Both the position numbers and the translations under genes were made by a program. Below, piece after piece: positions 58,534-64,000 of a stretch of DNA of 64,000 bases. This stretch comes from a virus. Taxonomy: Duplodnaviria > Caudoviricetes. The notes under the pieces were generated by a model. It was not told the origin of the DNA and did not search any database. It was given only the letters and a program-made list of their open reading frames with translations. Every line of letters starts with the position of its first letter. The stretch's first letter is position 1. The DNA lies in the IMG/VR virus record IMGVR_UViG_3300014208_000024, positions 96,001 to 160,000 of that record. The stretch is one strand, 5' to 3'.

Positions 58534-59088
58534 GTGAGTAATTCTGAATTTATTAGATATAAAATAAGACAAATTATACGAGAGGGAATTGCTCATATTT
58601 TAATGTCAAAAGTTCTTGATGATGGAAGAATTAATTTATTGAGTCATTCTACGCTATACGGAGCCCCATATTCAACGAAACCATTTGTGCTTAGGAATTA
58701 TATCGTCAAAAAAGAAATGCAATTTGAGATTGAATTAAGGCACTTATTTAATGACAACGTTATTCTTCATGAAGATAAAAAATCACAAGAATTAATAGCA
58801 TATTTAAAAAATGGCGGAAAACAAATTTTTACTTTAAAGCTAAGCTCAGATAGACTCAAACCATCTTTTATTCGTTTCGATTGTTTGCCTGGTAAAGAAA
58901 AAATAAAAATTCCAGTAACAATATCAGAAGAAGAAGTAGAAAGAATAATTTTAGATCACAGAGAAAAAATAATAGATGCTGGATTTAAAAATATATTTAA
59001 TCATCTTTACATACAAGTTCCAGAAAATTCTTCTACTGAATCTATAGAAGATTTTTATAAAGAAATTGGAAAAGAAACAAAATTATAA
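58534..59088 (+). CDS. Hypothetical late protein (GTG start)
   Basis: Leader SNSEFIRYKIRQIIREG; TATTTACA upstream. Confidence 0.65.
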   Translation: MSNSEFIRYKIRQIIREGIAHILMSKVLDDGRINLLSHSTLYGAPYSTKPFVLRNYIVKKEMQFEIELRHLFNDNVILHEDKKSQELIAYLKNGGKQIFTLKLSSDRLKPSFIRFDCLPGKEKIKIPVTISEEEVERIILDHREKIIDAGFKNIFNHLYIQVPENSSTESIEDFYKEIGKETKL

Positions 59089-60138
59089 AATTCCGCTTAC
59101 AAATAAATCTATTTGTTGTTTAGATAACATAACATTGATTTTATCTCCACTATCTATTACCGATTTCCATTTTGCTTGATTCACTTCTTCTAGTTTTTTG
59201 TCTTTTCCGTTTTTATTATAAGTCCATCCAGATTTTATTTCTATATTACTTCCGTTATAAAAAAAGTCTGTGTGATAAACATGAGATTTTCCATCATAAA
59301 TATAATCGTAACTCTTTCCATTAGAAACTTTTTCTAACAAACCTTTTTCTTCCATTTTTTCTAAGAAATAAAGCTCGTATGACCCTTGATAATATATTTC
59401 TGTATCTTTGTATCTTTTAACTTTATACTGGGCTTTAAAATGCTTTTGAAGAAGATTGTAATCTTTAAGATGATGAGATACTCCAAAATTATCCATTGAA
59501 GTTTGTTTTTTCTTTTCTTTAACAACTTCACTTTGTGAAGCATTTTCAACTCCATAATGTTCGTTTGTAGTTGCTTTTACTTTATCTTTTGTTTCTTGTA
59601 GTTGAGATATATTCTCTACTCCATGACGTTTTAAATTTGTTTTTTTTTGTTTATTTAAAAATTCTGGCAACTTTAAATGATGATCTACCCCGAATTTTTT
59701 TATTCTAGTTTGTTTTGCTTTTTCTGAAAACTCTTTAAAACAATTTTCTCCGTATTTTTCTATTTTAACCCTTTTGTTTTCCTGCGGATTATTGAAATTT
59801 TCGTCTCCGTATCTATTTTTTTTAGTATTTTTACTTTTTTCTTTTATAAATTCTAATTGAAATATATTATCAACACCAAATTTTTCTTTTACAGCTTCTT
59901 TAGAAAGGTCCACTCTTTTTTTTATGTTTTCTGGCATTTTTTGCCACGTTATTCTACATTCTTCAGAACATAGCCTTTTTGGATTACTTTTTCTAACCTC
60001 AAACTCTTTTCCACAAAGCAAACATTTTTTTATTTCTCTTGACTTTTTACTTTTTAATATATCTGCACATTTCCTACAACAAGTTTTCATTCCTTCTTTA
60101 GGATTTTCACATCCACATATTAAACATTTTTCTTTCAT
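59083..60138 (-). CDS. Free-standing homing-endonuclease-like protein, paralog of 5383..6609
   Basis: CLICG/CCRKC/CLLCG/CSEEC Zn motifs, K-x-K-F/Y-GV repeats, YQGSYE...YHTDF...IEIKSGWTYNKNGKDKKLE; own TATTTATA at 60176-60183. Confidence 0.8.
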   Translation of the reverse strand: MKEKCLICGCENPKEGMKTCCRKCADILKSKKSREIKKCLLCGKEFEVRKSNPKRLCSEECRITWQKMPENIKKRVDLSKEAVKEKFGVDNIFQLEFIKEKSKNTKKNRYGDENFNNPQENKRVKIEKYGENCFKEFSEKAKQTRIKKFGVDHHLKLPEFLNKQKKTNLKRHGVENISQLQETKDKVKATTNEHYGVENASQSEVVKEKKKQTSMDNFGVSHHLKDYNLLQKHFKAQYKVKRYKDTEIYYQGSYELYFLEKMEEKGLLEKVSNGKSYDYIYDGKSHVYHTDFFYNGSNIEIKSGWTYNKNGKDKKLEEVNQAKWKSVIDSGDKINVMLSKQQIDLFVSGIL

Positions 60139-62759: not shown

Positions 62760-63470
62760 TTATTTCTCAGAAATTTTAATAGAAATTTTCTTTATCGTAT
62801 TTACTTTCTCAAAATCTGTAGGGTCAACTATTTTTCCTAAAATAGTAACAGGGACTGAAATTTGATAAACTCTCTCTGAACTAATATCATCTAAAGACGA
62901 TTCATCACTGGGTTCCCCCATCTTTAAAGCAATATCATAACCATTAGCTTTTATATATCCTTGGCCGTTACTATATGCTCTATCCAACATCATTTCATAA
63001 AAATCATCTACATCTTCCATATAATGACCTACAAATTTTACATCAAATTCAATATCAACATATGCTGGTTGTGGAATTTTATATAAATCATATCCCTTTA
63101 ATGTACCATCAAATGTTGGAACTTTCACAAAAGTAAACATTTTTTTATTCGGTATAGTATATTTATTTGGAGCCGTTCCTCTTTTTACTGCAGTTCTTAT
63201 TAAAGCAATAAATGGTCTTGCCATTTCTTCTCCATTTTCTGATCTCATCTCTTTCCAATTCATTTTTCTTTCAGCCCACAACTCTTGAGAAATATAAACT
63301 ACTGGAACTCTTCTTGACAGTCCGTTTTCCATAATCAAATGTAAATTTTGACTTTCAATAAATTGTTTAAAACCTAAACTTAAATCTTCGATATTAAGAC
63401 GTTGTGGTAAAAAGTTGTGGTTTTTAAACTGATTATCAAGGTTTTTACCTATGTTTCTTAAAGCACTCAT
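62760..63470 (-). CDS. Tail terminator / sheath stabiliser (T4 gp15-like)
   Basis: RVPVVY...ELW, PFIALIR, IPQPAYVDIEFDV; adjacent to sheath; TATTTATA at 63481-63488. Confidence 0.6.
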   Translation of the reverse strand: MSALRNIGKNLDNQFKNHNFLPQRLNIEDLSLGFKQFIESQNLHLIMENGLSRRVPVVYISQELWAERKMNWKEMRSENGEEMARPFIALIRTAVKRGTAPNKYTIPNKKMFTFVKVPTFDGTLKGYDLYKIPQPAYVDIEFDVKFVGHYMEDVDDFYEMMLDRAYSNGQGYIKANGYDIALKMGEPSDESSLDDISSERVYQISVPVTILGKIVDPTDFEKVNTIKKISIKISEK

Positions 63471-63499
63471 TAATTTTTATTATAAATAGTGAAAAAATA

Positions 63500-63531
63500 T
63501 TTGCTTTAAAACTATTTTTTTTTTATATTTG
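63500..63531 (+). promoter_or_regulatory. Bacteroidota sigmaA consensus promoter TTTG-N20-TATATTTG pointing into a non-coding region
   Basis: TTTG 63500-63503, TATATTTG 63524-63531; no + strand ORF follows in the track. Confidence 0.75.
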
Positions 63532-63539
63532 CTCTGAAA

Positions 63540-63830
63540 TTATTTTTTACTTATAGATAGACGGCTAAAAACACCTGATCTATATTTTAAGTCCATCAAG
63601 GGAACCAATTTGGACACTGGAGAACAACAGGAACAAACCAGGGAGGCGATTTACTTACAATCGATAGTGTTCCAAGCCAATCAAGGTAAGTGATTAGATT
63701 GGTTGCAAAGGAGGGGGGCGATACTCAAGAAAGTATATATTCCTTATACCATAAATGCAGAGTTCTCAAATCTAAGTAAATTTTGCTTGGGTAAGGGGGA
63801 ACTCTGCTTCGAAAAAAGGCTCAATCTAAG
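63540..63830 (+). ncRNA. Candidate structured non-coding RNA of unknown class
   Basis: Helices 63552-58/63578-84, 63610-19/63665-75, 63647-51/63659-63, 63676-82/63697-703, 63757-67/63797-807 and 63771-79/63783-91; G-U pairs only work on +; GC-richer than the flanks. Confidence 0.6.
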
Positions 63831-63891
63831 AAAATATTCCTAAGTAACTTGTATATATAAAAGTAACTTATATTAATATAAGGGCAAATTT

Positions 63892-64000
63892 TTACCTTCC
63901 TTTCATAATGTCTTCATCAACTTCTACTCCTTTAATTGTAATATAGAATCTTCTATCTCCAGCCCAAGAGTGTTTATTAGAAATTTGAGAATATCCATCA
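63892..64000 (-). CDS. C-terminal fragment of a probable neck/head-completion protein (partial)
   Basis: DGYSQISNKHSWAGDRRFYITIKGVEVDEDIMKGR*; synteny upstream of the gp15-like and sheath genes. Confidence 0.5.
   Translation of the reverse strand, partial: DGYSQISNKHSWAGDRRFYITIKGVEVDEDIMKGR

What the first reader, a model, noticed from the sequence alone, without database searches (positions are those of the whole stretch)
63500..63830. Unexplained ~300-nt structured RNA with kissing-loop and alternative-pairing potential, driven by a perfect host-type promoter
Seen: a ~420-nt ORF-free gap between two structural genes. A consensus TTTG-N20-TATATTTG promoter faces into it, antisense to the late operon. 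It holds at least six helices whose G-U pairs only work on the + strand. The CGATT/AATCG hairpin loop region TTACTTAC (63651-58) is complementary to GTAAGTGA (63686-93) in the loop of the next hairpin, giving up to 8 bp of loop-loop pairing. The segment TTAGATTGGTT (63694-704) has three mutually exclusive partners (63603-10, 63676-82, 63821-29), suggesting a switch. It does not match tRNA, tmRNA, SRP, 6S or RNase P signatures as I recall them. Inference: an early phage ncRNA, such as an antisense repressor of the late neck/tail operon, a protein sponge/anti-defence RNA, or a replication-priming RNA.
Basis: partly seen in the sequence, partly recalled or inferred. Interest (0 to 1): 0.82.

Follow-up and report, generated by a model that had tools for sequence, protein, structure and literature searches.

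The report
New folded RNA gene beside gp15
The gene-free gap between the neck and tail-terminator genes of this giant T4-like phage encodes a roughly 300-base, intricately folded non-coding RNA with its own host-type promoter; nearly every phage of the clade keeps an RNA gene at this spot, it matches no known RNA family, and its function is unknown.

Summary
The 421-nt gap (63471-63891) has no conserved ORF. A TTTG-N20-TATATTTG promoter (63500-63531) points into it, back to back with the late-type promoter of the gp15-like tail-terminator gene.

Compensatory changes support it: 90.8% of cells pair in the pseudoknot, kissing-loop and PA6 helices, against 25-40% in slid controls. The helices hold 23 G.U pairs and no A.C pair, which fixes the + strand. 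The core folds with z = -3.0 on + and -1.25 on -.

No Rfam 15 family, tRNA or tmRNA matches. Almost all of about 55 related phage contigs carry a promoter-driven RNA at this locus. Most carry a different form ("type B"), also supported by covariation. Sequence profiles cannot link B to A, and the two forms are swapped between close relatives.

Function is not shown, and no RNA-seq data could be found. My best reading is an early, host-polymerase-made RNA that acts in trans through its 3D fold. Rivals are an anti-late or antisense unit and an R-loop primer or origin.

The parts
62760..63470 (-). Gene for the 236-aa tail-terminator protein (T4 gp15 fold), left neighbour of the RNA gene
   Evidence: ORF. 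The AlphaFold model (pLDDT 57) has T4 gp15 as its best Foldseek matches (9mkb, 4hud, 4huh; E 5e-8 to 2e-6).
63481..63489 (-). Late-type promoter-like motif CTATTTATA of the gp15-like gene (reads TATAAATAG on +)
   Evidence: ATAAATAG is invariant in the eight-sequence alignment A1, and ATAAATA lies in the first 45 nt of 47 of 55 distinct gaps. Genome-wide, 83 of 193 TATTTATA copies lie within 60 nt upstream of an ORF in gene sense, peaking at 18-25 nt.
63500..63531 (+). Bacteroidota-type promoter: -33 TTTG (63500-03), 20-nt spacer, -7 TATATTTG (63524-31)
   Evidence: Sequence. Conserved in relatives. The consensus is from my own knowledge of Bacteroidota sigma-A promoters.
63536..63870 (+). Inferred RNA, about 300-335 nt; both ends are inferred, not mapped
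   Evidence: The start is placed about 5-7 nt after the -7 element. The end is placed at the 3' palindromic hairpin. No RNA-seq was available.
63552..63584 (+). Hairpin PA1 (63552-58 / 63578-84), with a 19-nt loop that is nearly invariant in four of six sequences
   Evidence: Seven pairs kept through changes such as UAUAGAU/AUCUAUA to UUAUAUC/GGUAUAA.
63591..63615 (+). Hairpin PA2 (63591-95 / 63611-15); its loop holds the conserved AAGGG
   Evidence: GUCCA/UGGAC changes to GCUC/GAGC. AAGGG is invariant in A5.
63617..63673 (+). H-type pseudoknot: PA3 (63617-20 / 63638-41) crosses PA4 (63630-35 / 63668-73)
   Evidence: PA3 reads CUGG/CCAG, GUUG/CAAC and CGGG/CCCG. PA4 reads GGAACA/UGUUCC, GGAAUA/UAUUCC, GAGACA/UGUCUC and GAGAUG/CAUCUC.
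63647..63663 (+). Hairpin PA5 (63647-51 / 63659-63) inside the pseudoknot; its 7-nt loop is 63652-58
   Evidence: Five different stem versions, all 5 of 5 paired.
63676..63703 (+). Hairpin PA6 (63676-82 / 63697-703); loop bases 63686-92 kiss the PA5 loop
   Evidence: PA6 is 95% paired with 4 pairs changed on both sides. The kissing helix is 95% paired with 2 pairs changed on both sides. Slid controls give 25-40%.
63710..63737 (+). G-run GGAGGGGGGCG (63710-20) followed by small hairpin PA7 (63720-25 / 63732-37)
   Evidence: GGGGG is invariant in A5. PA7 is weakly supported (51% paired in the raw alignment; 5-6 of 6 after register fitting).
63757..63807 (+). Long hairpin P3: outer helix 63757-67 / 63797-807, inner helix 63770-76 / 63786-92; the 3' strand is G-rich (AGGGGGAACU invariant)
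   Evidence: The outer helix is 11 of 11 paired in all six sequences, with GCAGAG/CUCUGC changing to GCUAAG/CUUAGC and GUACAG/CUGUGC. It holds many G.U pairs.
63822..63829 (+). 3' tail segment CAAUCUAA, an alternative partner of 63694-701 that excludes PA6
   Evidence: 8 of 8 in the window and L018, 7 of 8 with changed bases in L016 and L017, not in L020 or L069. Duplex p is 0.03-0.06.
63841..63870 (+). A+U-rich imperfect palindrome (10-bp arms, one mismatch); candidate 3' end or two-way terminator shared with the converging 188-aa gene
   Evidence: Sequence. Relatives have A+U-rich palindromes at the same place. The scanner calls no canonical terminator.
63892..64000 (-). 3' end of the 188-aa gene (neck region, runs off the window), right neighbour
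   Evidence: ORF 4892-5458 of L001. The next gene upstream is a head-tail adaptor Ad2-like gene (phrog_211).

Best explanation
Shown: the gap is a stand-alone gene for a + strand non-coding RNA of about 300-335 nt.

Its fold has these parts, in order:
- a 5' hairpin with an almost invariant 19-nt loop (PA1);
- a second hairpin that displays AAGGG (PA2);
- a compact core in which an H-type pseudoknot (PA3/PA4) encloses hairpin PA5, whose loop kisses the loop of the next hairpin PA6;
- a G-run with a small hairpin (PA7);
- a long G.U-rich hairpin (P3);
- an A+U-rich tail that ends in a palindrome.

Inferred: the unmodified host RNA polymerase transcribes it straight after infection from a Bacteroidota-type -33/-7 promoter. 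This promoter stands back to back with the phage's own late-type promoter for gp15.

Inferred, and my committed mechanism: the RNA acts in trans as a folded particle. It binds a host or phage macromolecule through its conserved unpaired loops and G-runs, as a decoy, sponge or guide. It does not act by base-pairing with the neighbouring late genes. A tail segment that can displace one strand of PA6 may add a conformational toggle.

I put about 0.93 on the 'real RNA gene with this fold' part. The confidence given below is for the whole statement, trans action included.
For: RNA gene and fold:
- Covariation: 78.6% of cells paired against 32-47% in slid controls, and 22 pairs changed on both sides, reached by 0 of 500 shuffles.
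- The pseudoknot, kissing-loop and PA6 helices are 90.8% paired against 25-40%.
- Strand: 23 G.U against 0 A.C. Core z is -3.0 on + and -1.25 on -.
- No conserved reading frame.

Own promoter, early class:
- The TTTG-N20-TATATTTG promoter is conserved in position.
- GC-richer relatives replace it with a TTGNNN-N17-TAnnnT promoter in front of the same kind of RNA. The promoter therefore follows the host.
- Protein genes of this genome instead carry (C)TATTTATA.

Importance: an RNA gene sits at this locus in nearly all of about 55 distinct relatives, down to 45% gp15 identity.

Independence from the neighbours:
- The folded body overlaps no ORF.
- The RNA body is exchanged between close relatives (types A and B interleave on starred branches of the gp15 tree), while the promoter and the 3' palindrome stay.

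A pseudoknot plus kissing loops plus invariant unpaired motifs is what RNAs recognised as 3D objects usually show (own knowledge).
Against: - There are no expression data of any kind, and both ends are inferred.
- No partner is known.
- The locus is fixed and nearly universal inside the structural gene block. That fits a core cis function (origin, regulation of late genes) at least as well as a decoy.
- No canonical terminator follows, so transcription may run on into the antisense of the neck and head genes.
- Type A has only six members in three lineages, so the covariation statistics rest on few independent events.
Confidence: 0.45

Rival explanations
1. Anti-late or cis-regulatory unit. 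The early promoter sends transcription antisense into the neck and head late genes. The folded RNA is the stable 5' domain, or an attenuator or antiterminator riding on the polymerase, that sets how far this antisense transcription goes. Its alternative pairings (tail against PA6; in type B, the 5' domain against the 3' strand of the rod) would then be the switch.
For: - It lies opposite to the late operon, and no canonical terminator follows it.
- Chains of mutually exclusive pairings resemble attenuators. In the window, 63694-701 can pair with 63676-82 or with 63822-29.
- In type B, the 5' G-motif copies the 3' G-motif within each genome (permutation p < 1e-4), and both are complementary to the same pyrimidine strand.
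- In L021, L024 and L052, extra ORFs sit downstream on the RNA-sense strand, as if they were read from this promoter.
- Early 'anti-late' RNA is known from T4 (own knowledge).
Against: - A plain antisense or interference role needs no conserved pseudoknot and kissing loops.
- Most relatives have no + strand ORF downstream.
- The alternative pairing is missing in L020 and L069.
- A+U-rich palindromes at the end of the gap could stop transcription.
Confidence: 0.2
2. R-loop primer or origin, like ColE1 RNA II, T4 oriF/oriG or mitochondrial CSB II. The G-clusters of the nascent RNA re-anneal to the C-rich template. The hybrid runs into the A+T-rich palindromic DNA downstream and gives a primer-template junction for replication, or for loading the sliding clamp that turns on late promoters. 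The RNA fold decides whether the G-clusters are free.
For: - A strong early promoter is followed by G-runs (63710-20, 63794-98) and then very A+T-rich palindromes.
- The locus is nearly universal and fixed in the clade.
- In type B, the 5' G-motif is a copy of the 3' G-motif. It could hold the pyrimidine strand and leave the 3' G-clusters free for the DNA.
- T4-type phages start replication from promoter-made R-loops (own knowledge).
Against: - Covariation shows that the G-clusters pair within the RNA.
- The cumulative GC skew turns at about 176 kb, not at 159.5 kb, and follows gene direction.
- G6 runs are not rare in this genome: 14 copies.
- There is no direct evidence of a hybrid.
Confidence: 0.12
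3. Self-assembling or particle-associated RNA. The complementary loops pair between molecules, not within one, building a ring or cage as phi29 pRNA or ROOL/GOLLD do, perhaps used at the neck during assembly or packaging.
For: Covarying complementary loops cannot tell pairing within one molecule from pairing between molecules. The gene lies among the neck and tail-terminator genes. Phage-linked ornate RNAs form homo-oligomers (abstract of 10.1101/2024.12.08.627333, listed).
Against: The two hairpins are 12 nt apart on one junction, which favours contact within one molecule. T4-type terminase motors need no RNA (own knowledge). There is no Rfam match to pRNA, ROOL or GOLLD.
Confidence: 0.06
4. 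Not a functional RNA: decaying remains of a gene or a DNA-level element (protein-binding palindromes, recombination hotspot) that happens to fold.
For: The gap lies in a region with several homing endonuclease genes. The whole-gap folding z-score is only -1.6.
Against: Compensatory changes in nine helices. The 23 G.U pairs against no A.C pair exclude a DNA cruciform or the other strand. The promoter is conserved. There is no trace of a reading frame.
Confidence: 0.03

Closest known systems
Orphan large structured RNAs linked to phages (GOLLD, ROOL and similar)
   Same: Several hundred nucleotides, many helices with pseudoknots, carried by phages, function not established, found by comparative analysis.
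   Different: No Rfam model of these families matches. It is smaller. It sits at one fixed place in the structural module of one T4-like clade and has its own host-type promoter.
phi29 pRNA
   Same: A phage RNA made from an early promoter, with two loops whose complementarity covaries. It is encoded by a tailed phage, and here near the neck genes.
   Different: No sequence or model match. The host phage is a T4-like myovirus with a terminase-type motor. The loops here are 7 nt and probably pair within one molecule. There is no evidence of portal binding.
ColE1 RNA II, and T4 oriF/oriG R-loop primers
   Same: A promoter-driven, folded, G-run-bearing transcript followed by A+T-rich DNA. Alternative folds could decide the fate of the G-run.
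   Different: No antisense RNA I-like partner, no mapped origin, no hybrid shown. The G-runs pair inside the RNA with covariation.
T4 'anti-late' early transcripts, and small phage antisense RNAs (lambda OOP, P22 sar)
   Same: Transcribed early by host polymerase, on the strand opposite to late genes.
   Different: Those act through plain complementarity to an overlapping gene. This RNA's conserved part lies wholly between genes and has a tertiary fold.
Loop-loop three-way architectures such as the purine riboswitch aptamer
   Same: Two neighbouring hairpins on one junction held together by loop-loop pairs, next to a pseudoknot.
   Different: No downstream gene to regulate, no match to any riboswitch model, and a much larger RNA.

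Membership tests
Any Rfam 15 family (tmRNA, RNase P, 6S, SRP, group I/II introns, GOLLD, ROOL, HEARO, raiA, OLE, pRNA, riboswitches, ribozymes) | Score at or above the family's gathering threshold with its covariance model | tested here: not met
   0 matches in the whole window at gathering threshold. In 63300-64000 at E <= 10 there are only three chance-level matches on the - strand (best E 0.15, well below gathering). Relatives' loci gave no match: 14 loci at E <= 1 and 5 loci at E <= 0.1.
tRNA / tmRNA | Cloverleaf or tRNA-like domain with tag frame found by ARAGORN | tested here: not met
   0 genes in the window.
Structured non-coding RNA gene (generic) | Helices kept by compensatory changes, more than in controls, on one strand only | tested here: met
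Structured non-coding RNA gene (generic) | A discrete transcript of the predicted strand and size | not testable with these tools
   No RNA run was listed for the window or for a type B relative.
cis-antisense RNA | The transcript overlaps a gene on the opposite strand | tested here: inconclusive
   The folded body 63552-63870 overlaps no ORF. The 3' end is unknown and no canonical terminator is called.
Riboswitch or leader RNA | A same-strand gene directly downstream | tested here: not met
   The nearest + strand ORFs of 60 aa or more start about 2.5 kb (80 aa, overlapping - strand genes) and about 5 kb (100 aa) downstream, and the first free-standing one (163 aa) starts about 8.8 kb downstream. 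Only L021, L024 and L052 have inserted ORFs.
phi29-type pRNA | Covarying complementary loops that pair between molecules, and binding to the portal | tested here: inconclusive
   Loop complementarity covaries. Pairing between or within molecules, and portal binding, cannot be told from sequence. No pRNA model match.
R-loop primer / origin RNA (ColE1 RNA II, T4 oriF) | A persistent RNA-DNA hybrid that primes replication | not testable with these tools
   Only circumstantial: promoter, G-runs and A+T-rich palindromes. The GC-skew turning point is 16 kb away.
Same family as the common 'type B' RNA of the locus | Detectable sequence homology | tested here: not met
   The nhmmer profile of 32 type B RNAs does not hit the window's locus. 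The two share only the locus, the promoter, a 5' hairpin at the same distance, GGGGGGCG and AGGGGG motifs and a G.U-rich hairpin.

The most novel reading that the evidence does not exclude
The RNA is the self-regulating primer of a replication origin (or a clamp-loading 'enhancer' of late transcription) shared by a whole clade of T4-like Bacteroidota phages. Its G-clusters anneal to the template behind the polymerase and form an R-loop that runs into the A+T-rich palindromes. The covarying fold, together with the alternative pairings, decides whether the G-clusters are free. This would be a ColE1 RNA II-like logic in a giant lytic phage.
Probability: 0.1. Interest if true: 0.85.

Novelty: new variant of a known kind. 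Interest (0 to 1): 0.62.

Why it matters
Giant T4-like phages of Bacteroidota are uncultured and are read almost only through their proteins. Here is a nearly universal RNA gene in the middle of their neck and tail genes. It is made from a host-type promoter and has a tertiary fold (pseudoknot plus kissing loops) good enough for structure work.

If it is a decoy or guide, it points to an unknown early host-takeover target in a phylum that lacks Hfq, CsrA and ProQ. If it is a primer or antisense switch, it shows how these phages start replication or time their late genes.

The locus also shows structurally different RNAs being exchanged between close relatives behind one conserved promoter. That gives natural swap experiments.

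Tried and rejected
- Expression: no RNA holder was listed for the window or for a type B relative. Only two groundwater DNA data sets hold the window's sequence.
- Cultured relatives: none in the phage collection, by DNA or by the gp15-like protein.
- Other genomes: the type B motif pattern found 13 viral contigs, all already known from this locus. In 185,579 species genomes it found one chance match, inside a coding region of a spirochaete MAG.
- A type A motif pattern was too loose (119+ chance hits). A profile search of those loci gave no new member.
- The type B sequence profile did not find the window's RNA or any second copy in the genome. A BLAST of the RNA against its own genome found only itself.
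- GC skew gave no signal at the locus, and G-runs are not unusual in this genome.
- RNAalifold on the 32-sequence MAFFT alignment failed because of indels, so subfamily alignments were used instead.
- A full-length covariance model was not built, because calibrating a 360-position model would exceed the tool's time limit.
- Rejected by eye and by Rfam: tmRNA-like, tRNA-like, 6S-like, group I-like, HDV-like.
- The 2023 survey of viral structured RNAs (PMC10690425) may hold fragments of this RNA among its unnamed candidates of 151 nt or less, but its supplementary files are not held here.
- The scan's own notes hold no look-alike in other genomes.

Full report
**Setting.** The window is bases 96001-160000 of a 372,283-bp IMG/VR virus record with 28.7% G+C, from a groundwater metagenome. 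It is a T4-like myovirus: it has a Gp23-type major capsid protein, a tail sheath and a head-tail adaptor.

The finding lies between two - strand late genes. The 236-aa gene (62760-63470) gives a low-confidence model (pLDDT 57), but its best structural matches are T4 gp15, the tail terminator (9mkb, 4hud, 4huh; E 5e-8 to 2e-6). The 188-aa gene (63892 onwards) follows an Ad2-like adaptor gene.

**The observation.** The gap 63471-63891 (421 nt) holds no conserved reading frame. The longest open frames of the six related sequences lie in different frames and give unrelated peptides.

On the + strand, TTTG (63500-03), a 20-nt spacer and TATATTTG (63524-31) form a textbook Bacteroidota -33/-7 promoter (consensus from my own knowledge). 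Between this promoter and the gp15 start codon lies TATAAATAG (63481-89). Read on the - strand this is CTATTTATA, which is this phage's own promoter-like motif for protein genes: 83 of its 193 copies lie within 60 nt upstream of an ORF in gene sense, peaking at 18-25 nt. The two promoters thus stand back to back.

**Relatives.** Scans with the gp15-like protein and with its alignment fetched 7 + 48 + 23 loci from viral and metagenome contigs, with 45-85% protein identity. These give 55 distinct gap sequences, the window's included.
- Nearly all keep an ORF-free gap of about 290-440 nt, with a promoter aimed away from gp15. 43 of the 55 have a strict or relaxed TT(T)G...TAnnTTTG match.
- GC-richer relatives (L047-L050, L063) carry a TTGNNN-N17-TAnnnT promoter instead.
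- One apparent absence was an artefact of my ORF caller. Only L026 and L062 have another gene abutting gp15.

The promoter follows the host, while the protein genes use the phage motif. This is my basis for "early, made by host polymerase". It is an inference.

**The window's RNA (type A).** Five relatives (L016, L017, L018, L020, L069) align with the window along the whole RNA (A5). They fall into three lineages. One search lists every helix in every sequence.

| Element | 5' strand | 3' strand | Support |
|---|---|---|---|
| PA1 | 63552-58 | 63578-84 | 7 pairs kept through changed bases |
| PA2 | 63591-95 | 63611-15 | GUCCA/UGGAC to GCUC/GAGC |
| PA3 (crosses PA4) | 63617-20 | 63638-41 | CUGG/CCAG, GUUG/CAAC, CGGG/CCCG |
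| PA4 | 63630-35 | 63668-73 | four versions, all 6 of 6 paired |
| PA5 | 63647-51 | 63659-63 | five versions, all 5 of 5 paired |
| Kissing loop | 63652-58 | 63686-92 | 7 of 7 in all six sequences |
| PA6 | 63676-82 | 63697-703 | 95% paired, 4 pairs changed on both sides |
| PA7 | 63720-25 | 63732-37 | weak |
| P3 outer | 63757-67 | 63797-807 | 11 of 11 in all six |
| P3 inner | 63770-76 | 63786-92 | 7 of 7 after register fitting |

- On the raw MAFFT alignment, 78.6% of cells pair, against 32-47% when partners are slid. 22 pairs change on both sides, which 0 of 500 shuffles reach.
- For the pseudoknot, the kissing loop and PA6 alone, 90.8% of cells pair against 25-40%.
- With the register chosen by Watson-Crick pairs only, the helices hold 325 Watson-Crick, 23 G.U and no A.C cells. 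Only the + strand RNA can form them.
- The 261-nt core folds with z = -3.0 on + (1 of 200 shuffles) and -1.25 on -. With the flanks included, z is -1.6.

**The proposed switch.** Segment 63694-701 pairs with 63676-82 in PA6. It can also pair with 63822-29 in the tail. That second pairing is kept through changed bases in L016 and L017 (UUGGGGA or UUAGGGA with UCCCUAA), but it is absent in L020 and L069. Against shuffled tails it reaches only p = 0.03-0.06. The third partner (63603-10) appears in the window's minimum-energy fold but is not conserved. I regard a toggle as possible, not shown.

**The commoner RNA at the same locus (type B).** About 43 relatives carry another RNA of 180-300 nt.
- It has a 5' hairpin whose large loop shows GGGGGCGUUG.
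- A long irregular "rod" follows. A pyrimidine-rich strand pairs with two G-runs and the spacer between them, and the spacer covaries (AUUAU/AUAAU, CUAUAG/CUAUAG, AAAGA/UCUUU). An A-rich linker pairs with a U-rich stretch. UUACCAGAC pairs with the 3' end GUCUGGUAA.
- Subfamily folds give 41 pairs, 18 of them with changes on both sides, in one subfamily, and 73 pairs, 23 with such changes, in the other.
- Within each genome the 5' G-motif copies the 3' G-motif through at least five independent changes (CGUU, UCU, CUUGG, AGCUUGG, CAUU; permutation p < 1e-4, not corrected for relatedness). The same holds for AUGGUA and CUGGUA. The 5' domain therefore mimics the 3' strand of the rod and could compete for its partner.

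**Are A and B related?** A sequence profile of type B does not find the window's RNA. Shared features are:
- the locus and the promoter;
- a 5' hairpin at the same distance;
- GGGGGGCG and AGGGGG motifs;
- a G.U-rich hairpin;
- a CCUAAG-like tail.

On the gp15 tree, type A occurs only inside one nine-member subclade. There it interleaves with type B on well-supported branches (L020 with L021, 99/91; L066 with L069, 100/94). The promoter and the 3' palindrome are kept across the swap. The RNA body is thus exchanged as a cassette between close relatives. Whether A is a much-changed B or an unrelated replacement stays open. L046 and L075 carry yet other, longer inserts.

**Known families.**
- Rfam 15 gives nothing at gathering thresholds in the window.
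- At E <= 10 in 63300-64000 it gives only three chance-level matches on the - strand.
- It gives nothing in 19 relatives' loci.
- ARAGORN finds no tRNA or tmRNA.
- The type B motif occurs only at this locus in IMG/VR. In 185,579 species genomes it occurs only once, by chance, inside a gene.
- There is one copy per genome.
- A 2023 survey predicted over 8,000 short structured candidates in IMG/VR (PMC10690425). Pieces of this RNA may be among them unnamed, which I could not check.

**How it may work.** Shown: a conserved, single-copy, + strand RNA gene with a pseudoknot and kissing-loop core and its own promoter. Everything beyond that is inference.
- I favour a trans-acting folded RNA that binds a host or phage factor early in infection (about 0.45 for the whole statement). 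The promoter tracks the host. The body overlaps no gene and can be swapped without touching the neighbours. The fold and the invariant unpaired motifs look like a recognition surface.
- Against this, near-universal presence at one fixed place in the structural block suits a core cis role. One such role is an anti-late or attenuator unit (0.2). The chains of exclusive pairings, the lack of a canonical terminator and the ORFs inserted downstream in three relatives speak for it.
- Another is an R-loop primer or origin (0.12), suggested by G-clusters after a strong promoter followed by A+T-rich palindromes. But the G-clusters demonstrably pair within the RNA, and the GC skew turns 16 kb away.
- A pRNA-like or cage-forming assembly (0.06) and "no function" (0.03) are less likely.

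**Verdict.** This is a real, previously uncatalogued structured RNA family of an uncultured clade of giant T4-like phages. The functional guesses remain open.

Noticed in passing
L031, L033, L034 and about 40 other loci, just upstream of the gp15-like gene (for example L034:1149-1435, - strand): A second, commoner RNA form ('type B') at the same locus. Its 5' hairpin loop (GGGGGCGUUG) and the following AUGGUA copy the 3' G-motif and CUGGUA of the same molecule, and the copies change in parallel from genome to genome. This suggests two strands competing for one partner.
   Followed up: partly
L046:912-1500 and L075:1-1500 (- strand): At the same locus, behind the same kind of promoter, these two relatives carry longer (0.6 kb and at least 1.5 kb), GC-richer, helix-rich ORF-free inserts with no Rfam match. 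They may be further RNA forms.
   Followed up: no
L021, L024, L052/L053, within the gap: Extra ORFs of 126, 156 and 80 aa are inserted downstream of the RNA on the RNA-sense strand, as if expressed by read-through from the RNA promoter. The 156-aa one is a K/E-rich repeat protein.
   Followed up: no
whole genome; for example window 63481-63489: The promoter-like motif before this phage's protein genes is (C)TATTTATA in gene sense, 18-25 nt upstream of the ATG (83 of 193 copies lie upstream of ORFs). It is not T4's TATAAATA.
   Followed up: partly
L047, L048, L049, L050, L063: GC-richer relatives drive the type B RNA from a TTGNNN-N17-TAnnnT (sigma70-like) promoter instead of the Bacteroidota -33/-7 type. 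This suggests a host outside Bacteroidota.
   Followed up: no
window 59083-60138 (-), and L001:7062-8558 (-) just beyond the window: Free-standing homing (HNH-type) endonuclease genes are inserted between the structural genes: next to the sheath gene, and between the major capsid gene and the neck genes.
   Followed up: no
window 63841-63870 and the same place in relatives: Each relative ends the gap with an A+U-rich, nearly perfect palindrome, different in sequence from phage to phage. It could be a two-way terminator for the RNA and the converging 188-aa gene.
   Followed up: no
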